A DNA stretch of 64,000 bases, from IMG/VR virus record IMGVR_UViG_3300028854_000488, one strand, 5' to 3'. The stretch is from a virus (lineage: Duplodnaviria > Caudoviricetes). The translations under genes and the position numbers were made by a program. The notes under the pieces were generated by a model, which saw only the letters and a list, made by a program, of their open reading frames with translations, did not search any database and was not told the origin of the DNA. Numbering within the stretch: the stretch's first letter is position 1; the number at the start of each line of letters is the position of its first letter. Positions 4,101-54,433 of this stretch are shown piece after piece.

Positions 4101-4154
4101 CTTGTATATTTTATACAAAATATAGTCGAATAATACACAAAAGTTTAAAAAATG

Positions 4155-4226
4155 TGCTCTTGATGTGAATCGAACACACAATCCTTTCCTTAAGAGGGAA
4201 CCGCTTTACCATTGAGCTACAAAAGC
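4155..4226 (-). tRNA. trnK: tRNA-Lys(CTT), class I architecture
   Basis: Acceptor GCTTTTG/CAAGAGC, anticodon loop CTCTTAA, T-loop TTCGATT, 5-nt variable region. Confidence 0.9.
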
Positions 4227-4332: not shown

Positions 4333-4339
4333 CTTAGAG

Positions 4340-4426
4340 GGTGCAAGATGAGATTCGAACTCACATTAACTATTAAGTATTCCTGATTCACAGTCAGGGC
4401 GGCATCCCTTACCGACTACATGCACC
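4340..4426 (-). tRNA. trnH: tRNA-His(GTG) with encoded G-1 and a 17-nt variable region
   Basis: G-1:C73, anticodon arm CCTGA-CTGTGAA-TCAGG, T arm GTGAG-TTCGAAT-CTCAT, variable AATACTTAATAGTTAAT. Confidence 0.85.
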
Positions 4427-4455
4427 ATATATAATATTCACATTCTGAATATTTG

Positions 4456-4545
4456 CGGTGACTGTGAGGATCGAACTCACGCAACGCTTTTTACACGCCC
4501 TACTGGTTTAGCAAACCAGCCCCTTTACCATTTGGGTAAATCACC
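4456..4545 (-). tRNA. trnS: tRNA-Ser(GCT)
   Basis: Anticodon arm CTGGT-TTGCTAA-ACCAG, long variable arm, T-loop TTCGATC, G73. Confidence 0.92.
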
Positions 4546-5250
4546 ATTATTTTTTAATTTATTAATTATTCCACTAATAGTACTTTTAGATGCATTATAA
4601 TGTTTAGCAATATCAACTTGTTTTATTCCAGAATTATACATTTTTATTATTTCTTCTCTTGAAATTTTACATTGTCTTTCTATATATTTTGAATTTTCTA
4701 CTTTATTATATATTTCTTCTTTAAATTCTTCAAAAAATTCAATATCTGAATGTTCTTCAATATGACAATTTCTACATAAAACATCACATTTATCTAATTC
4801 ATCTATAATATTATCTTTTAATTCTGCTATACTATTTATTCTAATTCCTAATGAACCAATACAAAATAATTTATTTTTTGAATCTCTATGATGAAAAGAT
4901 AATGATGCTGCACATTTATCATATCCGCATTTTTCGCATTTTTCTCCTTTATATTTTAAATATATTAACTTACTTTTTCTTCTATGTTCATTTGTATTTT
5001 CTATATTTTCATTATAATGTTTTTCCATGTGACAATTTTCACATAATAATTCACATTTTTCAATTTCTTTTTTTATTTTTGAAAATCTACTAGTTTTTAT
5101 TTGTGATATAGTAAAATCTTTATCTGTTAAATGATGAAAAGATAAGTGAAATATATTATCATCACCACATTTGATACATTTTCCACCTAAATAATTTATT
5201 GCTTTTATTTTTTTGCATAACATATCTATTTTTTGCCATTCTTTTTTCAT
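4525..5250 (-). mobile_element. Free-standing HNH endonuclease (two tandem Zn/HNH units plus C-terminal HTH) inserted in tRNA cluster
   Basis: Two CxxC...FHH...C.(L/V)LC.NCH units; C-terminal GIKQVDIAKHYNASKSTISGI HTH. Confidence 0.85.
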
Positions 5251-5293
5251 AGTTCGTATTTTTATTTGTATATATTAAATAAAAATACGAACT
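5251..5293 (-). promoter_or_regulatory. Perfect 17-bp hairpin abutting HNH start codon, with TAATATATA motif at the loop
   Basis: AGTTCGTATTTTTATTT-(AATATATAC)-AAATAAAAATACGAACT-ATG on minus strand. Confidence 0.7.
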
Positions 5294-5323
5294 TTTATTA
5301 CTTTATTAATAAACATTTTGATG

Positions 5324-5411
5324 CGGTAAGTTGAGGACCCGACCCCCATCCGATTAAACGAAACCTAGTTTTCAAGACTAGTCGTCACTCCAATTGACTG
5401 CTTAACTTACC
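5324..5411 (-). tRNA. trnS: tRNA-Ser(TGA) with 8/4 acceptor/T-stem architecture
   Basis: 8-bp acceptor GGTAAGTT/AACTTACC, 4-bp T stem GGGG/CCTC, T-loop GTCGGGT, anticodon arm CTAGT-CTTGAAA-ACTAG, long V arm. Confidence 0.8.
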
Positions 5412-5421
5412 ATTTATTTTG

Positions 5422-5503
5422 CACGCCATATTGGGATTCGAACCCATGAACCTTACGGAATGATTTTGGAGATCATCTGCTTTGACCACTTGCTTAATGA
5501 CGC
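5422..5503 (-). tRNA. trnW: tRNA-Trp(CCA) with class II-like D-loop and long variable arm
   Basis: Anticodon arm ATGAT-CTCCAAA-ATCAT, variable TCCGTAAGGTTC, T-loop TTCGAAT, G73. Confidence 0.82.
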
Positions 5504-5520
5504 ATATTATTTTTATTCAG

Positions 5521-5595
5521 CGAGTAAACGGTGAGTTCAACACCAGCCTTTGGTTTTTCAGACCAACGTACAATAAGCACCTATACGATTTACCC
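5521..5595 (-). tRNA. trnF: Atypical tRNA-Phe(GAA)
   Basis: Acceptor GGGTAAA/TTTACTC, anticodon arm TTGGT-CTGAAAA-ACCAA, T-loop TTGAACT, D-loop with GC instead of GG. Confidence 0.75.
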
Positions 5596-5603
5596 TTATA
5601 CCA

Positions 5604-5915
5604 TCACTTGATTTTATCAAGTATTATTTTTCTTTCATATTCCAAATCTAATTTCTCAATCACTGAGAATGGCGAAACACCTATTCCTGAATATGTAATA
5701 TCTTCAAATCCATTTTCTTTTGTAATTAGGCTTTCATTTTCTGATATTGCACCTGAATATTTATCATATCCTTTTTTATGTTCAATATCACCTGTACTTG
5801 GATTATATGATCCCCAACTTGATGATCTTTTTGAACCAATTGGTTCCACATAATAACTTTTACCTGTTTTTAATGACTTAACAATGAATCTACCTGTTTC
5901 ATCTCTTTGTGTCAT
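5604..5915 (-). CDS. Conserved phage hypothetical protein within tRNA operon
   Basis: GRFIVKSLKTGKSYYVEPIG...WG..NPSTG...KY.GAI.E.ESLIT.ENGF. Confidence 0.65.
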   Translation of the reverse strand: MTQRDETGRFIVKSLKTGKSYYVEPIGSKRSSSWGSYNPSTGDIEHKKGYDKYSGAISENESLITKENGFEDITYSGIGVSPFSVIEKLDLEYERKIILDKIK

Positions 5916-5980
5916 AAACTTTTTGTCGAAATCTAACTTTACCCCATGATTTTAATATTTATTTTTTATAATAGCTTCTC

Positions 5981-6041
5981 ACTATTCAGATGGATAATTT
6001 TTATGCCCAGCCTAACTGAATAACTGTCATCCACTATGACA
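5981..6041 (-). ncRNA. Candidate structured (pseudoknotted) RNA 3' of tRNA-Lys(TTT)
   Basis: Stems TGTCAT/ATGACA and TATTCAG/CTGAATA, with possible TGGAT/ATCCA pairing. Confidence 0.3.
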
Positions 6042-6045
6042 AATG

Positions 6046-6128
6046 TGTACCCTACGAGATTCGAACTCGTGTTGTCCATATGGACCCTGATTAAAAGTCA
6101 GGAGCATAAACCACTCTGCCAAAGGTAC
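6046..6128 (-). tRNA. trnK: tRNA-Lys(TTT) with class II body (3-bp D stem, long variable arm)
   Basis: Acceptor GTACCTT/AGGGTAC, anticodon arm CCTGA-CTTTTAA-TCAGG, V arm GTCC-ATAT-GGAC, T arm ACGAG-TTCGAAT-CTCGT. Confidence 0.9.
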
Positions 6129-17391: not shown

Positions 17392-18594
17392 TTATTTGAT
17401 ATTTAACAAATTTCTATAAATTTCAATTGTTTCTTTATCACCAGTATATTTACCTTTATCGTCACTAAATTTTACACAATTATTCCATTCCCTTGATTCT
17501 GTAATTTTAGCTGCTGTAAGTTTTATGACCATATTAGATGGCTTTACATTATCCACACTACATGATAAGTGTGTACCTATACCATAACTATCTTTCATAC
17601 GTCCATCAACAATTTTATGAATTTCAATTGCTTTATCTACAGTTAATGCGTTACTAAAAATTATAGTTTTTGTTGATGGATCAATACCAAGAGATTTATA
17701 TTTTAGAATAAAATCTTCTAATGCTTCAATTTCATCTCCACTATCTACTCTTACTCCTTGAAATAAAATAGCATTTTTTAATGAAAAGTTTTTCATGAAT
17801 ACTTCTCTAGTTAATGTATCATACAAGAATGTTCCTAACGAACCTTGATATACATCTTCCCACATATTCATTGCAGTATTATTTGCTTCTACTGGTCCAT
17901 ATATTGATGCAATTAAGCTAATATATTGGTGTGACATTGTACCATTTATTTTTAATCCATATTTCATACCGAAATATACATTTGATGTGCCTATTATACC
18001 TCCTAAATCAGTACAATTATCTTTCATACAATCAATGAATGATTTAATAACAAGATGCTGATGAGCAAAAGAAAGACGGCGCCTAGTTCCGAACTCAGAG
18101 ACTAAAATTTTAGCATCAATCATTTTTTTACATTTGTCATATGATTTTTGATATTCTTTTTTTTCATCATATTTATCAAAATCTCCATTCATTTTATGAG
18201 CAAGTTCAGATACAATTGCTAATATTGGTTGCTCCCAAAATATAGTTTTAAAAATTGATCCTTCAATTTCAATTGATAAATGACCTTCTACATCTTGACT
18301 TATAGAAACTTCAGATGAATCAAATCTATATCCTTTCAAAAATGTAAAAAACCATTTTGGGAAATAATAAAACTTATCTAACATAAAGTTGAATTCATCA
18401 TCAGTTAATTTTACATCTTCCATTTTTTTAAGTTGATTTTTAACTTTTTCTGCAAATCCTTTTGGATAACAGGTTGAATTTCTATCAATAAAACTATATT
18501 TTCCAATAGCACGAGGAAATTTTTGAAGATATAAATAACACAAGCTAAATGTGTATAAGTCAGTATCTAAGATACTTTTGATAATTTGTTTCAT
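17392..18594 (-). CDS. pncB: Nicotinate phosphoribosyltransferase
   Basis: SILDTDLY, SEFGTRRR, GTSNVY, GTMSHQY, GVRVDSGD, SYGIGTHL, VIKL. Confidence 0.95.
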   Translation of the reverse strand: MKQIIKSILDTDLYTFSLCYLYLQKFPRAIGKYSFIDRNSTCYPKGFAEKVKNQLKKMEDVKLTDDEFNFMLDKFYYFPKWFFTFLKGYRFDSSEVSISQDVEGHLSIEIEGSIFKTIFWEQPILAIVSELAHKMNGDFDKYDEKKEYQKSYDKCKKMIDAKILVSEFGTRRRLSFAHQHLVIKSFIDCMKDNCTDLGGIIGTSNVYFGMKYGLKINGTMSHQYISLIASIYGPVEANNTAMNMWEDVYQGSLGTFLYDTLTREVFMKNFSLKNAILFQGVRVDSGDEIEALEDFILKYKSLGIDPSTKTIIFSNALTVDKAIEIHKIVDGRMKDSYGIGTHLSCSVDNVKPSNMVIKLTAAKITESREWNNCVKFSDDKGKYTGDKETIEIYRNLLNIK

Positions 18595-28400: not shown

Positions 28401-30200
28401 ATGGAAACAAAATTAAGAAATGAAATTTCGGATGAATTTAAATGGGATTTAACACAAATTTATAAAGATAAAGATGAATTTGATATAGATTGTGATAAAA
28501 TTTTAGATTATACTAAAAAAATTGTATTATTTAATGGTAAATTAACAGATACTAAAGAATTGAAGAAATGTTTGGATTTGTCAACTAAGACAAGTAAAAT
28601 GATAACAAAGCTTTTTTGTTATGCTAATATGTATTTAGATCAAGAACAAAATAATGAAGATGCTGATAAATTGGTTCAGAAAGTAAAAGATGCTGCTGTT
28701 AAATTTAGTTCAAAATGCGAATTTATTACAGACGAAATTATTCATTTTAATGATGATATAATTTCAAATATATTATCTTGTGAAGATTTAGAAGTCTATC
28801 ATTTTGATATTAAAGATACATTAAAAAATAAAAGTCATATTTTATCTAAAATAGAAGAAGAACTTTTAACTAATATTTCTGATGTTTTTTCAACATCAAA
28901 TGATGTATATACAATTTTTAAAAATACTGAATTGAAATATTCAACTATTACACTATCAAATGGAGAAGAAGTATTAGTTGATGATAGAAATTATAGAGTA
29001 TTAATTGAATCTAGCAATAGAGATGATCGTAAATTAGTTTATGATACTTTTTATAAAACATTTGATGAATATAAGAACACATTATCTAAATTGATGTTCA
29101 AATTCATTAAGAGTTCTGCAACAGAAAGTAAAATTAGAAATTATAAATCATCTTTAGATAATTCTTTATCATCAGAAAATATTCCTATATCTATTTATGA
29201 TGGTTTAATTGAAAATGTATCCAATAATCTTGATAAAATGTTTGATTATCTTAATTTTAGAAAAGATATATTAAATTATGATGAATTGAATTATTATGAT
29301 TTATATAACCCCATTGTGAATGATGTAGATTACAAATATTCATATGATAACGCTAAAAAATTACTTATAGAATCAACCTCAATTCTTGGAAATGAATATA
29401 CTAATATTATGAAAAGAGCAATCAGTGAAAGTTGGATAGATGTATATCCAAATCAATTTAAAGATACTGGTGCATATATGAATGGATCTGTGTACGATGT
29501 TCATCCTTATATTTTATTGAATTATAAAGATAAATATGATGATGTTTCAACTCTTCTTCATGAAGCAGGACATGCTGGACATTCTATATTAAGTAATGCT
29601 AATCAACCTTATAATAAATCAAGTTATTCAACATTTATTGCTGAAATTGCATCAACAACAAATGAACTTTTGTTACTTAATCATATGTTGACTACAACAG
29701 ATGATAAACAATTGAAAATTTTCTTGTTGAATAATTATATTGAACATTTTAGAACAACTGTATTCAGACAAACTATGTTTGCTGAATTTGAAAAATTTAT
29801 GTATGAATCAGTAGAAAATGATGAAGTTTTAACAGCATCATTGATGAATGATAAATATTATGAATTACTTAAAAAGTATCATGGTGAAGATAAAAATATT
29901 ATTAAAATTGATAAATTGTATGCAAATGAATGGTCACGTATTCCACATTTCTATTATGATTTTTATGTATTCCAATATTCAACAAGTTTTATTTCTGCAG
30001 TTATTCTTTCAACAAGAATTTTGAATGGAGATAAAGAACAATTAGAAAAATATATGGAACTATTGAAATCTGGTAGTAGTGATTATCCTGTAGATTTGTT
30101 GAAAAAGGCTGGTATAGATTTGACCGATGGAGAATGTTATAAGGATGCATTTAAACAATTCTCGGAATATTTGGAAGAACTAAAATCTTTATTGAAATGA
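28401..30200 (+). CDS. pepF: Oligoendopeptidase F (M3B)
   Basis: KWDLTQIY, WIDVYP..K.TGAY, TLLHEAGHAGH, AEIAST.NE, W.RIPHFY..FYVFQY. Confidence 0.95.
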   Translation: METKLRNEISDEFKWDLTQIYKDKDEFDIDCDKILDYTKKIVLFNGKLTDTKELKKCLDLSTKTSKMITKLFCYANMYLDQEQNNEDADKLVQKVKDAAVKFSSKCEFITDEIIHFNDDIISNILSCEDLEVYHFDIKDTLKNKSHILSKIEEELLTNISDVFSTSNDVYTIFKNTELKYSTITLSNGEEVLVDDRNYRVLIESSNRDDRKLVYDTFYKTFDEYKNTLSKLMFKFIKSSATESKIRNYKSSLDNSLSSENIPISIYDGLIENVSNNLDKMFDYLNFRKDILNYDELNYYDLYNPIVNDVDYKYSYDNAKKLLIESTSILGNEYTNIMKRAISESWIDVYPNQFKDTGAYMNGSVYDVHPYILLNYKDKYDDVSTLLHEAGHAGHSILSNANQPYNKSSYSTFIAEIASTTNELLLLNHMLTTTDDKQLKIFLLNNYIEHFRTTVFRQTMFAEFEKFMYESVENDEVLTASLMNDKYYELLKKYHGEDKNIIKIDKLYANEWSRIPHFYYDFYVFQYSTSFISAVILSTRILNGDKEQLEKYMELLKSGSSDYPVDLLKKAGIDLTDGECYKDAFKQFSEYLEELKSLLK

Positions 30201-36645: not shown

Positions 36646-38349
36646 TTATTTAATATCAATATTATTGTAATATACAAATTTTAGATTACCAGAATCATAT
36701 ATTCTATATATCTTTCTTTCTAACATTATTTCATGCTCTGTTTTATTAATATCAAATCCATCCATAACTAATTTATTTTTTCTGAAGTTAAATTTATTAT
36801 ATCTATTTCTATTTATGACATAAAAATAATTAGGATCAGTTTTTCCTTCATATTTAAATCCTAATTTTTCATATAATTTACCTTGACTAATAGATCTATC
36901 TGAGTACACTGTTATTTTATTAGAATTATAATTTTTAATAAAATAATTAAATAATTGATATTCTCCTTCTATAATATCAGTATTTAATATATTACAAAAC
37001 CTTAATAAATTATATTCTCCTTCATTTATAATATGTCTATTATCAAATGTCATAAGACTTACTAATTTTTTTTCATAAAATAATCCAATTTTAATTTTTG
37101 AACCTATAAATCCTTGAATATTATTATTATTAAGAAATTCTCTAGCTAAATTATTATTATCAATTTTTTTTATTTCACAGTCTATAGCATATATTTTATT
37201 TTTTATTTTTCCTAATTTATTTAATATTATAGATTTTATTATCTCTCTCTTATATAGCCATTCGTCTTCCCATATATGAATTAATTGTATTCCTAATTTT
37301 TCACATTCTTCAGTTTTATTTAAATGATAATTATTATCTTTATTTACTTCATTATGCCAATATATACCATTATATTCAAATGCTAATTTTAAATCTGGTA
37401 AATAAATATCTAATTCTAATGGAGATATTATAGATTTACTATTTAATATTATAGATTTACTATAATTTTCTGATATGAATTCTATAATTTTAGATTCCAT
37501 GAATGAATTAGATGACGGATTACATTTAGGACATAAAATAATATGTTCTAACATTTTATGATTAAACATAGTTTTTGAAATTTTATATGAATGATCACAT
37601 TTATCACATTTAATAATTAAATGATTATCTTCAACTTCAATAATATTTATTTCTTTATATTTATCTTTATATTTTTCAGCGAATTTAGATTTTATTATAT
37701 CACTTTTAAAAGGTGAAATGTTACCATATTTTTCTAAATTTGTGTCTTTTATTTTTTGTTTTATTTTTTCATTTTGAGCTGGATGTTCAAAACCATATTT
37801 TTTTAAATTGGTATTTTTAATTTTATTTTCTATATTTTTATTTTGAGCAGGATATTCTACTCCATATCTTTCTAAATTAGTATTTTTAATTTTATCTCTA
37901 ATTTCTTTATTTTCTAAAGGAATTTCCGTACCATATTTTTCTAAATTTGTTTTTTTTATTTTTTCTTTTACTTCATTATTTAATAATGAAGTTTTATACC
38001 CGTATTTTTTTAAATTAGTTTTTTCTGCTTTTTCTTTTATTTCTTTATTTTTCATAGGATTATCAACTCCAAATAATATATTACTTGTTAGTTTGAATTT
38101 TTCCTTGGAACATTTTTTACAACCATAATAATTATGATTATTGAAATTTTTATAATATTTTTCGATTGAAATATAATTTTCAGAATCACATTTCTCACAA
38201 ATCGCTGTAATTTTAAGTTTTGAATTTTTATTTACATCTTCAATTTTTATATTACAAGTATTACCATTTATAACATTATATCCTAAATTTTTATAATATG
38301 TTATATTTCTACTTGTCATTTGTATATTTAACTCTTTTTCTTTTATCAT
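36646..38349 (-). mobile_element. Free-standing homing endonuclease (Zn ribbon, TNLxKYG repeats, PD-(D/E)xK and Hef-like C-terminal domain)
   Basis: ELDIYLPDLKLAFEYNGIYWH; KIYAIDCEIK...LLRFCN...YSDRS..G.LYEKLGF. Confidence 0.8.
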
Positions 38350-53276: not shown

Positions 53277-53380
53277 AATTACAAATTATTATTTTTTATT
53301 ATATATAAATTTTAAATTGTCTATTTTCTGAAACAATTTTATTGAATAACTTTTTTTTATATATACAAATAAAAAAGAAT

Positions 53381-54433
53381 ATGATATTATCTGAAAGTGT
53401 GATTTTAAAAATGAATAATAGATATGTGAAACATTATATAGATAAAGGATATTATGTTAAAGGTGGACAAACTATAGAAGTTAAAATTGAAGATTTGACA
53501 ATTAATAGTAATGTCTTAATTGATGCTAAGTGTGATCGCTGTGGTGAAGAAAGAAAGATATTGTTTATTGCTTATAATAGATATACAAAAAATAGAACTG
53601 AGGACTATTATTGTCAAAAATGTAACAATATAAAAAGAAAAATAAGTGTCAAAGAAAAATATGGAGTTGATAATATATTAGAATCTGATGTTATAAGAGA
53701 TAAAATTAGAAATACTATGATAGAAAGATATGGTACTGAACATGCATTAAATGTTTTAGAATTTAAAGAAAAGATGAAAGAAACAAACAATATTAGATTT
53801 GGCTGCGATTATGCATCTGAAAATGATGAAATTAAAAATAAAATTAAAAATACATTTTTAAAAAATTATGGTGTTACAACATCACTTTTAGATAAAGACA
53901 CTCAAATTAAAATAGAAAACACAAATCTAGAAAAATATGGAGCAAAAAATGTTTTTTCATTGTATGAATTTAGAGTTAAGCCAATGTTAGATAAATATGG
54001 TGTTGATCACCCTATTAAAAATGATGATATACGGAACAAGATAGAGACAACAAATACTGAAAGATATGGTAATATAAATCCGATGTGCAATGATGATGTT
54101 AAAAATAAGATGATTAAAACTAAGCAATCATTAGGATTATATTTACAAGATTCTGATAGGAGTGATTTTTTGAATTATAAATTGAAAGTTAAATCATATA
54201 CGAATAAAAATAAAAAAGAATTATATGAATTTTGGAATGGTTATGATTTTTATGATAATGAATATATAAAAGGTAATAATAAAAATGATAGAAATTATCC
54301 AACAATTGATCATAAAAAATCTGTAAAATATGGATTTGAAAATAGTATTTCACCTGAAGAAATTAGTAAATTGTCAAATTTGTGTATAACAAAGAGAGGA
54401 ATCAATTCATCAAAGGGTTCAAATTGTAGATGA
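53381..54433 (+). mobile_element. Zn-ribbon, KYG-repeat, HNH-like endonuclease
   Basis: CDRC..C..C, repeated (K/R)YG units, YPTIDHK...NLCITKRGINSSK. Confidence 0.75.

What the first reader, a model, noticed from the sequence alone, without database searches (positions are those of the whole stretch)
4340..6128. Class I anticodons on class II bodies: Lys(TTT), Trp(CCA) and His(GTG) tRNAs with long variable arms
Seen: tRNA-Lys(TTT) has a 15-nt variable region with a perfect GTCC/GGAC stem and a 3-bp D stem. tRNA-Trp has a 12-nt variable arm (CC-GTAA-GG) and a Tyr/Leu-like D loop. tRNA-His has a 17-nt variable region. The neighbouring Lys(CTT) is a normal class I tRNA. Known: bacterial long V arms are normally limited to Ser, Leu, Tyr and Sec, and SerRS recognises the V arm rather than the anticodon. 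Phage tRNA-Lys variants can rescue tRNA-cleaving defences such as PARIS. Inference: these are either nuclease-resistant body swaps or tRNAs charged with Ser/Leu that cause codon reassignment.
Basis: partly seen in the sequence, partly recalled or inferred. Interest (0 to 1): 0.75.

Follow-up and report, generated by a model that had tools for sequence, protein, structure and literature searches.

The report
Long-armed phage Lys, Trp, His tRNAs
A giant peat-soil phage carries real lysine, tryptophan and histidine tRNA genes with the extra hairpin arm that textbooks reserve for leucine, serine and tyrosine tRNAs; this design is common in phage tRNA clusters, the tRNAs most likely still carry their normal amino acids, and I found no paper describing it.

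Summary
On the minus strand, ARAGORN and Rfam find tRNA-Lys(UUU) (84 nt, 15-nt variable region), tRNA-Trp(CCA) (83 nt, 12 nt) and tRNA-His(GUG) (87 nt, 17 nt), next to a normal class I tRNA-Lys(CUU).

The window is part of a 140-kb fragment, about 20% complete, of a huge 26%-GC peat or permafrost phage.

These tRNAs are not isolated oddities. Only 32 real long-armed Lys(UUU) turned up in genomes of 185,579 prokaryote species, about 20 of them in dense tRNA arrays.

The arm stems covary. The core is class II-like. The discriminator base follows the anticodon's isotype. His keeps G-1 and C73.

Codon reassignment is not supported. In two conserved phage genes, AAA aligns with Lys, TGG with Trp and CAY with His. 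The arm geometry (3-4 unpaired bases on the 3' side) differs from Ser (1) and Leu (2).

Best reading: these are cognately charged phage tRNAs on a class II scaffold. Escape from host tRNA-cutting defences is plausible but untested.

This scan had already noted the same theme on other DNA (180 notes). I found no publication describing it.

The parts
6045..6128 (-). tRNA-Lys(UUU), 84 nt, class II-type body, A73
   Evidence: ARAGORN. Rfam 57.5 bits. In the 13-member family alignment A1, RNAalifold recovers the full cloverleaf plus a 4-bp variable-arm stem.
6071..6085 (-). Variable arm of tRNA-Lys(UUU): GUCC-AUAU-GGAC followed by 3 unpaired bases (AAC)
   Evidence: Read from the sequence. Fold -5.5 kcal/mol, z = -7.1. 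The stem pairs covary in relatives, for example UA:5 CG:4 AU:4 at one pair.
5421..5503 (-). tRNA-Trp(CCA), 83 nt, Tyr-like D arm, G73, G1.U72, one-base bulge in the T stem
   Evidence: ARAGORN. Rfam 25 bits, below the cut-off. It is 98% identical in L206 and conserved with compensatory changes in L259. Family alignment A2.
5448..5459 (-). Variable arm of tRNA-Trp: U-CC-GUAA-GG-UUC
   Evidence: Read from the sequence. L206 has GAAA in place of GUAA, and both are GNRA loops. The two stem pairs covary strongly in 16 relatives (CG:9 AU:4 UA:2 GC:1 and CG:8 GC:4 UA:3 AU:1).
4339..4426 (-). tRNA-His(GUG), 87 nt plus encoded G-1 (4426), C73, unusual D arm
   Evidence: ARAGORN. Rfam 34.9 bits. The L206 homologue has an identical D arm and variable region, but acceptor pairs 1-3 and 5 are changed compensatorily, with G-1 and C73 kept.
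4365..4381 (-). 17-nt variable region of tRNA-His, with only a weak ACU/AGU 3-bp helix
   Evidence: Read from the sequence. RNAfold gives no stable hairpin for it alone. More distant family members have clear hairpins, for example UCU-GAAA-AGA and GGAA-GAAA-UUCC.
4154..4226 (-). tRNA-Lys(CUU), ordinary class I, 73 nt
   Evidence: ARAGORN. Rfam 60.1 bits.
4455..4545 (-). tRNA-Ser(GCU), standard class II, 91 nt, G73
   Evidence: ARAGORN. Rfam 56.7 bits.
5520..5595 (-). tRNA-Phe(GAA), 76 nt, with an enlarged D loop and an atypical T loop
   Evidence: ARAGORN. Rfam 42.1 bits. Conserved in L206.
5325..5411 (-). Unannotated tRNA-like element: 8-bp acceptor stem, UGA (Ser) anticodon, long variable arm, G73, short atypical T arm
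   Evidence: Rfam tRNA-Sec model 26.2 bits, below the cut-off. It is 97% conserved in L206 and L259. The consensus fold shows compensatory changes against Mycobacterium phage JoeDirt.
4525..5250 (-). 241-aa ORF inside the tRNA cluster, with repeated Cys/His motifs and a C-terminal HTH; resembles a homing endonuclease
   Evidence: the ORF listing. Pfam HTH_7 and HTH_28 hits. 67% DNA identity to the 735-kb uncultured phage LR756501.

Best explanation
The three genes are functional phage tRNAs that read AAA/AAG (Lys), UGG (Trp) and CAU/CAC (His) in the standard way. They are most likely charged by the host's LysRS, TrpRS and HisRS. Each keeps its own isotype's identity marks: the anticodon, plus A73 for Lys, G73 for Trp, and G-1:C73 for His. 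They sit on a class II-type core, with a 3-bp D stem, a purine 13.22 mismatch and a hairpin variable arm.

They belong to large families of long-armed Lys, Trp, His, Asn, Cys and Thr tRNAs that occur almost only in phage tRNA clusters. The same scaffold is shared across isotypes. This suggests an origin by remoulding of class II tRNA genes, through changes to the anticodon and acceptor end, inside phage tRNA arrays.

Shown here: the genes exist, their structure is conserved and covaries, identity marks track the anticodon, and the codons are not reassigned.

Inferred: cognate charging and use in translation.

More speculative (about one in three): the arm persists because it alters the surface next to the anticodon stem that host tRNA-directed nucleases or toxins must recognise. 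That would let the phage keep translating when host tRNAs are destroyed.
For: Gene calls.

Structure conserved with compensatory changes:
- Lys family A1: 17 of 24 pairs carry double changes, including the variable-arm stem.
- Trp family A2: 18 of 22 pairs.
- His in the window versus L206: the acceptor stem has turned over while G-1, C73, the D arm and the variable region are kept.

Interchangeability: the related phage locus L259 has a 74-nt class I Lys(UUU) between the same flanks where the window has the long-armed one.

No recoding: AAA columns are K 0.32, R 0.11, E 0.11, and the strongly conserved columns include 19 K and no S or L. TGG is W in 7 of 7 columns. CAT is H at 0.60. AAA makes up 94 of about 1000 codons in these two genes, so a missense tRNA would be very costly.

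Discriminator tracks isotype in long-armed tRNAs: Asn G 22/22, Cys U 14/14, His C 13/13, Trp G 76/77, Lys A 111/144. Ser tRNAs of the same loci have G in 88/99.

Arm geometry: Lys has 3-4 unpaired bases 3' of the stem in 121 of 132 cases, against 1 for Ser and 2 for Leu in the same loci.

Class II core: the 13:22 position is paired in only 39%, against 80% in class I tRNAs and 27% in Leu/Ser/Tyr.

Arms are real hairpins: 80% have at least 3 bp, and 155 of 289 loops are GNRA.

Phage enrichment: at least 118 viral contigs each for Lys and Trp, against 32 real long-armed Lys in 185,579 species genomes.

No phage synthetase needed: 3 of 5 near-complete phage records of 476-619 kb that carry long-armed Lys have no Lys/Asp/Asn-type synthetase gene.

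Precedent for phage tRNAs that defeat tRNA-cutting defences: T5 tRNA-Lys against PARIS, whose AriB nuclease cuts between positions 40 and 41 of the anticodon stem, a few bases before the variable region that starts at position 44 (PMC11464382).
Against: There are no expression or charging data. The RNA-library contigs that match this stretch cover only the protein-coding parts.

Trp scores below Rfam's tRNA cut-off and has G1.U72, U4.G69 and a bulged T stem. The His variable region barely pairs and its D arm is irregular. These two could be weaker or decaying copies.

A73 on a class II body is also the Leu and Tyr discriminator, and G73 (Trp, Asn) is also the Ser discriminator. Some mischarging therefore cannot be excluded from sequence alone.

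Nothing links the arm to any nuclease. The host and its defences are unknown. The bias towards certain isotypes may reflect which synthetases tolerate an arm rather than which tRNAs are attacked.
Confidence: 0.6

Rival explanations
1. Neutral legacy. The long arm and class II core are left over from class II tRNA genes (Tyr-, Ser- or Leu-like) that were converted to new isotypes by anticodon and acceptor-end changes within phage tRNA arrays. The arm is tolerated by the synthetases concerned and gives no advantage of its own.
For: The same scaffold appears under different anticodons. The D arm GGCAGA..AUGC with the arm G-NNNN-GNRA-NNNN-C-AAY occurs in Lys(UUU), Lys(CUU), His (L072) and Trp (L184, L214). 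The window's Trp has a Tyr-like D arm and a UUC tail after the arm, as do a Lys (L087) and a Glu (L194). Class I and long-armed Lys(UUU) swap at one locus between related phages.
Against: The arm stems are kept by compensatory changes across very diverged phages, and many are capped by GNRA loops. This argues for selection on the arm itself. A neutral relic should be lost often, because a small deletion removes it. The trait is strongly enriched in phages over cells.
Confidence: 0.25
2. Mischarging or recoding. The long arm recruits SerRS, or A73 with the class II core recruits LeuRS, so that AAA, UGG or CAY are partly or wholly read as Ser or Leu during infection.
For: According to the review PMC7609411, SerRS recognises the long arm and G73 rather than the anticodon. 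Allo-tRNAs with non-Ser anticodons exist in bacteria (PMC5389517). Trp carries G73 and Lys carries A73.
Against: Codon-to-residue alignment shows standard meanings, with S and L absent from the top residues. AAA is about 9% of codons in those genes. Discriminators follow the isotype, and His has G-1:C73. Arm geometry and stem length (3-4 bp, 3-4 unpaired bases on the 3' side) differ from Ser (5-6 bp, 1 unpaired) and Leu (2 unpaired) in the same loci. All three have a 7/5 acceptor/T architecture, not the 8/4 or 9/3 of allo-tRNAs.
Confidence: 0.05
3. Handle for a phage factor. The arm is a recognition element for a phage-encoded protein, such as a synthetase, a modification or repair enzyme, or a processing factor, which marks phage tRNAs as distinct from host tRNAs.
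For: Huge phages encode many translation-related genes. Two of the five large phage records with long-armed Lys carry a class IIb synthetase-like gene. The conserved GNRA-capped arm is a typical protein or RNA docking motif.
Against: No Lys/Asp/Asn-, Trp/Tyr- or His-type synthetase and no CCA-adding enzyme was found in the 140 kb held. That is only about 20% of the genome, so this is weak evidence. Three of five near-complete large phages lack such a synthetase. The trait also occurs on viral contigs of only 20-100 kb, although many of these may be fragments.
Confidence: 0.1
4. Not used in translation. The tRNAs, especially the lower-scoring Trp and His of this window, are decaying copies, nuclease decoys or regulatory RNAs.
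For: Trp scores 25 bits, below Rfam's cut-off, and has a bulged T stem. His has an irregular D arm and an unstable variable helix. L206 carries a canonical class I His beside the long-armed one. Some irregular tRNAs described by Mukai et al. are charged but not used in translation.
Against: There are compensatory substitutions in the acceptor, anticodon and T stems between the window, L206 and L259. G-1 and C73 are retained. The anticodon loops are intact. In this window the long-armed His and Lys(UUU) are the only copies of those isoacceptors in the cluster.
Confidence: 0.08

Closest known systems
Canonical bacterial and phage class I tRNA-Lys, tRNA-Trp and tRNA-His
   Same: They share the anticodons and anticodon loops, the discriminators (A73, G73, C73), the encoded G-1 for His, the 7/5 acceptor/T architecture and the GTTCGAATC T loop.
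   Different: The variable region is 12-17 nt instead of 4-5 nt. The D stem has 3 bp with a 13.22 mismatch instead of 4 bp. Total length is 83-87 nt instead of 73-77 nt.
Bacterial class II tRNAs (Leu, Ser, Tyr)
   Same: They share a hairpin variable arm, a 3-bp D stem with G13.A22, and frequent G9. The window's Trp resembles tRNA-Tyr in its D loop and in the UUC tail after the arm.
   Different: The anticodons and acceptor-end identity marks belong to other amino acids. The arm has 3-4 unpaired bases on its 3' side (Tyr-like or longer), not 1 as in Ser or 2 as in Leu in the same phage loci.
Allo-tRNAs and (8/4) tRNA-Ser/His of bacteria and phages (Mukai et al. 2017, PMC5389517)
   Same: Both are long-armed tRNAs carrying anticodons outside Leu/Ser/Tyr, and some occur in phage tRNA clusters.
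   Different: Allo-tRNAs have an 8/4 or 9/3 acceptor/T branch, a Sec-like D arm and mostly G73 or U73 (Ser identity). The three tRNAs here are 7/5 with isotype-matched discriminators. The (8/4) tRNA-His of that paper lacks G-1, whereas this His has it. Only the separate element at 5325-5411 resembles the 8/4 Ser type.
Nuclease-resistant phage tRNAs (T5 tRNA-Lys against PARIS, PMC11464382; anticodon-loop variants, PMC10264068)
   Same: Both are phage-encoded isoacceptors of tRNAs that defence nucleases are known to target, Lys(UUU) above all.
   Different: The known escape variants differ by point substitutions in the anticodon stem-loop and stay class I. Here the whole body class differs, and resistance has not been tested.
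Nematode nev-tRNAs (class II tRNAs with Gly or Ile anticodons charged with Leu; cited from my own knowledge and reference 8 of PMC5389517)
   Same: A class II body carries an anticodon of a class I isotype.
   Different: Those are eukaryotic and are reported to be charged according to the body (Leu). Here the identity marks follow the anticodon and the codons keep their standard meaning.

Membership tests
tRNA (Rfam RF00005) | Cloverleaf scoring above the gathering cut-off of 29 bits | tested here: met
   Lys(UUU) 57.5 bits and His 34.9 bits pass. Trp scores 25.0 bits and does not pass, but ARAGORN calls it and it is conserved with compensatory changes.
Canonical class I tRNA-Lys/Trp/His | Variable loop of 4-5 nt and a 4-bp D stem | tested here: not met
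   Variable regions are 15, 12 and 17 nt. The Lys D stem is 3 bp plus G13.A22.
Canonical class I tRNA-Lys/Trp/His | Isotype identity marks: the anticodon plus A73 (Lys), G73 (Trp), G-1:C73 (His) | tested here: met
   Read from the sequence. Across the families: Lys A73 111/144, Trp G73 76/77, His C73 13/13.
Class II tRNA-Ser | Ser anticodon-independent identity: a long arm of Ser geometry plus G73 | tested here: not met
   Lys has A73 and His has C73. Arm stems are 2-4 bp with 3-4 unpaired bases on the 3' side, against 5-6 bp and 1 unpaired base in 99 Ser tRNAs of the same loci. Trp has G73, but that is also its own identity base.
Class II tRNA-Leu / tRNA-Tyr | A73 with a class II core, plus a Leu or Tyr anticodon (G34 and U35 for Tyr) | tested here: inconclusive
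   Lys(UUU) has A73 and a class II core, so LeuRS cross-charging cannot be excluded by sequence. The anticodons are not Leu or Tyr. AAA aligns with K, not L. The arm geometry is not the Leu type.
Allo-tRNA / (8/4) tRNAs (PMC5389517) | 12-bp acceptor branch split 8/4 or 9/3 | tested here: not met
   ARAGORN and the alignments give 7/5 for Lys, Trp and His. The separate element at 5325-5411 does have an 8-9 bp acceptor stem.
Defence-evading phage tRNAs | Shown resistance to a tRNA-cutting defence, and rescue of infection | not testable with these tools
   The host and its defences are unknown. Only the published precedent was read.
Suppressor or recoding phage tRNAs | The decoded codon has a non-standard meaning in phage genes | tested here: not met
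   AAA aligns with K, TGG with W (7/7) and CAT/CAC with H in PepF and NAPRTase alignments against 176 bacterial homologues. ORFs are dense under table 11.

The most novel reading that the evidence does not exclude
Phages have evolved a separate body plan for many class I isotypes (Lys, Trp, His, Asn, Cys, Thr and others). It is a class II core with a GNRA-capped arm whose geometry (3-4 unpaired bases on the 3' side) matches none used by SerRS or LeuRS. The arm sits beside the anticodon stem and makes these tRNAs invisible to host tRNA-cutting or tRNA-modifying defence enzymes, while the host synthetases that read the anticodon and discriminator still charge them. If so, this is a general, structure-level counter-defence rather than the point mutations known so far.
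Probability: 0.3. Interest if true: 0.85.

Novelty: new variant of a known kind. Interest (0 to 1): 0.68.

Why it matters
Textbooks and recent reviews (for example PMC7609411) limit bacterial long-armed tRNAs to Leu, Ser, Tyr and Sec. Hundreds of phage tRNAs break that rule while apparently keeping their identity.

If confirmed, this shows that LysRS, TrpRS, HisRS, AsnRS and CysRS tolerate a class II body. That matters for tRNA identity rules and for engineering orthogonal tRNAs.

It would also offer a testable new route by which phages could escape tRNA-targeting immunity such as PrrC, PARIS, retron PtuAB or VapC-like toxins.

Cultured systems exist. phiCbK has tRNA-Lys genes of 88 and 91 nt, annotated simply as tRNA-Lys.

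For annotation, such genes should be labelled by anticodon. They should not be taken as evidence of recoding.

Tried and rejected
- Expression: public runs holding this stretch are peat and permafrost metagenomes. The three metatranscriptome runs have contigs only over the endonuclease-like ORF and the 103-aa ORF, not over any tRNA. This says nothing about tRNA expression or processing.
- BLAST of the single tRNAs against GenBank phages found only generic T-arm matches.
- The promoter and terminator scan was uninformative in this AT-rich DNA: 19 promoter-like sites against 18.3 expected.
- The His-family alignment (A3) was too heterogeneous for RNAalifold to place the variable stem or the D stem. 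I judged the His arm from individual sequences instead.
- Searches of the 140-kb record for Lys/Asp/Asn-, Trp/Tyr- and His-type synthetases and for a CCA-adding enzyme were negative. The record is only about 20% of the genome, so this is not evidence of absence.
- Literature: six full-text searches found no description of long-armed Lys, Trp or His tRNAs in phages. A paper on Shigella phage Sf14 tRNAs does not mention variable arms, and the related phage Sf13's Lys(UUU) is an ordinary 76-nt tRNA.
- An intron explanation was considered and rejected. The extra bases lie in the variable region, not after position 37, and they form covarying hairpins.
- I considered whether the arm protects the gene from the neighbouring homing endonuclease. 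I had no way to test this.
Full report
**What is there.** The window is the minus strand of bases 76730-140729 of a 140,730-bp IMG/VR virus record. The record is about 20% complete by CheckV and has 26% G+C.

Several results point to a very large phage. A protein 89% identical to the window's PepF lies on a 711-kb contig. The ORF inside the tRNA cluster resembles part of a 735-kb uncultured phage. The DNA recurs in peat and permafrost metagenomes.

ARAGORN and Rfam find six tRNA genes on the minus strand between 4154 and 6128:
- Lys(CUU), 73 nt, class I
- His(GUG), 87 nt
- Ser(GCU), 91 nt
- Trp(CCA), 83 nt
- Phe(GAA), 76 nt
- Lys(UUU), 84 nt

- Lys(UUU) has a 15-nt variable region with a GUCC/GGAC stem, a D stem of 3 pairs plus G13.A22, and A73.
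- Trp has U-CC-GUAA-GG-UUC (12 nt), a Tyr-like D loop and G73.
- His has a 17-nt variable region, an encoded G-1 (4426) and C73.

There are caveats. Trp scores only 25 bits, below Rfam's cut-off of 29, and has a bulged T stem. The His variable region pairs weakly and its D arm is irregular.

**These are families, not accidents.** I scanned IMG/VR for the Lys(UUU) anticodon loop followed at class II distance by a T loop. The matching Trp scan also hit the limit, with 84 distinct long-armed Trp. His with the window's anticodon stem-loop occurred in 4 contigs, and more family members appeared in other loci.

The same Lys pattern found only 49 places in one genome each of 185,579 prokaryote species. 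Of these, 32 were real long-armed Lys, and about 20 lay in dense, phage-like tRNA arrays, mostly in metagenome bins.

Cultured phages carry them too. phiCbK has two tRNA-Lys genes of 88 and 91 nt, annotated simply as tRNA-Lys.

**Structure is under selection.** RNAalifold on 13 Lys relatives recovers the full class II cloverleaf with a 4-bp arm stem, and 17 of 24 pairs show double compensatory changes. In 16 Trp relatives the two arm pairs covary strongly.

Across 332 long-armed tRNAs of isotypes other than Leu, Ser and Tyr:
- 80% of arms fold with at least 3 bp.
- Mean energy is -2.9 kcal/mol, against -0.6 for shuffles.
- 155 of 289 loops are GNRA.

Their cores are class II-like. Position 13:22 is paired in 39%, against 80% in class I tRNAs and 27% in Leu/Ser/Tyr, and G9 is enriched.

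**Close relatives of this phage are informative**.
- L206 is 92-98% identical over the cluster. It has the same Trp, with a GAAA loop in place of GUAA. Its long-armed His has an identical D arm and variable region, but acceptor pairs 1-3 and 5 are all replaced compensatorily while G-1 and C73 are kept. A canonical class I His sits beside it.
- L259 has a neighbouring gene 77% identical at the protein level. It carries a 74-nt class I Lys(UUU) between the same flanks where the window has the long-armed Lys, and a long-armed Trp with the same arm but changed acceptor, anticodon and T stems. Class I and long-armed Lys(UUU) therefore look interchangeable at one locus.

**Which amino acid?** Four lines of evidence argue against Ser or Leu charging and codon reassignment.

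1. I aligned PepF (28401-30200) and NAPRTase (17392-18594) with 92 and 84 bacterial homologues of 39-59% identity. AAA codons (94 columns) sit over K 0.32, R 0.11 and E 0.11. Of the strongly conserved AAA columns 19 are K and none is S or L. TGG is W in 7 of 7 columns. CAT and CAC sit over H. AAA is about 9% of the codons in these genes.
2. In long-armed tRNAs the discriminator follows the anticodon's isotype: Asn G 22/22, Cys U 14/14, His C 13/13, Trp G 76/77, Lys A 111/144 and U 30. Ser tRNAs in the same loci have G in 88/99.
3. Arm geometry differs. In the same phage loci, Ser arms have 5-6 bp and 1 unpaired base on the 3' side, Leu arms have 2 unpaired, and Tyr arms have 3. Long-armed Lys, His, Asn and Thr have 3-4 bp and 3-4 unpaired bases, and Trp most often has 3. 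The review PMC7609411 states that SerRS reads the long arm and G73, and that orientation probably matters more than sequence.
4. All three tRNAs are 7/5, not the 8/4 or 9/3 of allo-tRNAs.

Residual mischarging cannot be excluded from sequence alone. A73 is shared with Leu and Tyr, and G73 with Ser.

**Origin.** One scaffold recurs under Lys(UUU), Lys(CUU), His and Trp anticodons: the D arm GGCAGA..AUGC with the arm G-NNNN-GNRA-NNNN-C-AAY. A Tyr-like scaffold recurs under Trp, Lys and Glu. This points to remoulding of class II genes inside phage arrays, by changing the anticodon and acceptor end, rather than insertion of an arm into each class I gene. I did not test this with trees.

**Function of the arm.** This part is inference. 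Isotypes are unevenly affected. In loci not selected for them, the long-armed fractions are:

| Isotype | Long-armed | Total |
|---|---|---|
| Asn | 22 | 76 |
| His | 13 | 46 |
| Cys | 14 | 58 |
| Thr | 12 | 90 |
| Ala | 1 | 64 |
| Asp | 1 | 75 |
| Phe | 1 | 57 |
| Val | 2 | 72 |

. Lys(UUU) is the classic target of PrrC and PARIS. PARIS AriB cuts between positions 40 and 41 of the anticodon stem, a few bases before the variable region that starts at position 44, and T5 escapes with its own tRNA-Lys (PMC11464382). An arm there could block recognition, but nothing here tests that.

A phage-encoded synthetase partner is not generally required. Three of five near-complete phage records of 476-619 kb that carry long-armed Lys lack any class IIb synthetase gene.

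**Novelty.** Six full-text searches and three targeted readings found no description of this design. This scan's own earlier notes report the same theme on other genomes, 180 notes in all. They agree with what I found independently, and I verified the phiCbK example myself.

**Verdict.** The recoding reading is not supported. The nuclease-evasion reading is plausible but untested. This is a new structural variant of tRNA that is common in phages.

Noticed in passing
window 5325-5411 (-): An unannotated tRNA-like element with an 8-9 bp acceptor stem, a UGA (Ser) anticodon, a long arm, G73 and a short atypical T arm. It is 97% conserved in L206 and L259, more than its flanks. It is similar, with compensatory changes, to unannotated stretches in the tRNA clusters of Mycobacterium phages such as JoeDirt. 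It fits the (8/4) tRNA-Ser of phages described in PMC5389517.
   Followed up: partly
phage loci L019-L311; Shigella phage Sf13, L313:2739-2816: The reverse oddity: 65 of 169 clean tRNA-Leu in these phage arrays have a short variable loop (75-78 nt, class I shape). An example is the 78-nt tRNA-Leu(TAG) of cultured Shigella phage Sf13. Type I tRNA-Leu is known in Streptomyces (PMC6614811), but I did not find it discussed for phages.
   Followed up: no
L033, L038, L051, L116 (tRNA-Ile(UAU), 91-95 nt): tRNA-Ile(UAU) genes with 22-24-nt variable regions whose loop carries a conserved CAGAUUA(G) motif across unrelated contigs. This is a different and more sequence-specific kind of arm.
   Followed up: no
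window 4525-5250 (-): A 241-aa ORF with repeated Cys/His motifs and a C-terminal HTH, resembling a homing endonuclease, sits inside the tRNA cluster. Related phages differ by whole tRNA cassettes at its sides: Lys(UUU) is absent from L206, which has an extra class I His.
   Followed up: partly
window 5520-5595 (-): tRNA-Phe(GAA) with an enlarged D loop and a T loop reading GUUGAAC instead of the usual GUUCGAAUC. It is conserved in L206.
   Followed up: no
window 17392-18594 (-) and 28401-30200 (+): The phage encodes a full-length nicotinate phosphoribosyltransferase and an M3 oligoendopeptidase F. The NAPRTase is 76% identical to a protein labelled Candidatus Dojkabacteria on a 16-kb contig. 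That could hint at the host or be a mis-binned phage contig.
   Followed up: no
window 36646-38349 (-) and 53342-54433 (+): Two paralogous large proteins carrying the DUF7487 domain, one of them also with a HypA-like zinc-ribbon match.
   Followed up: no
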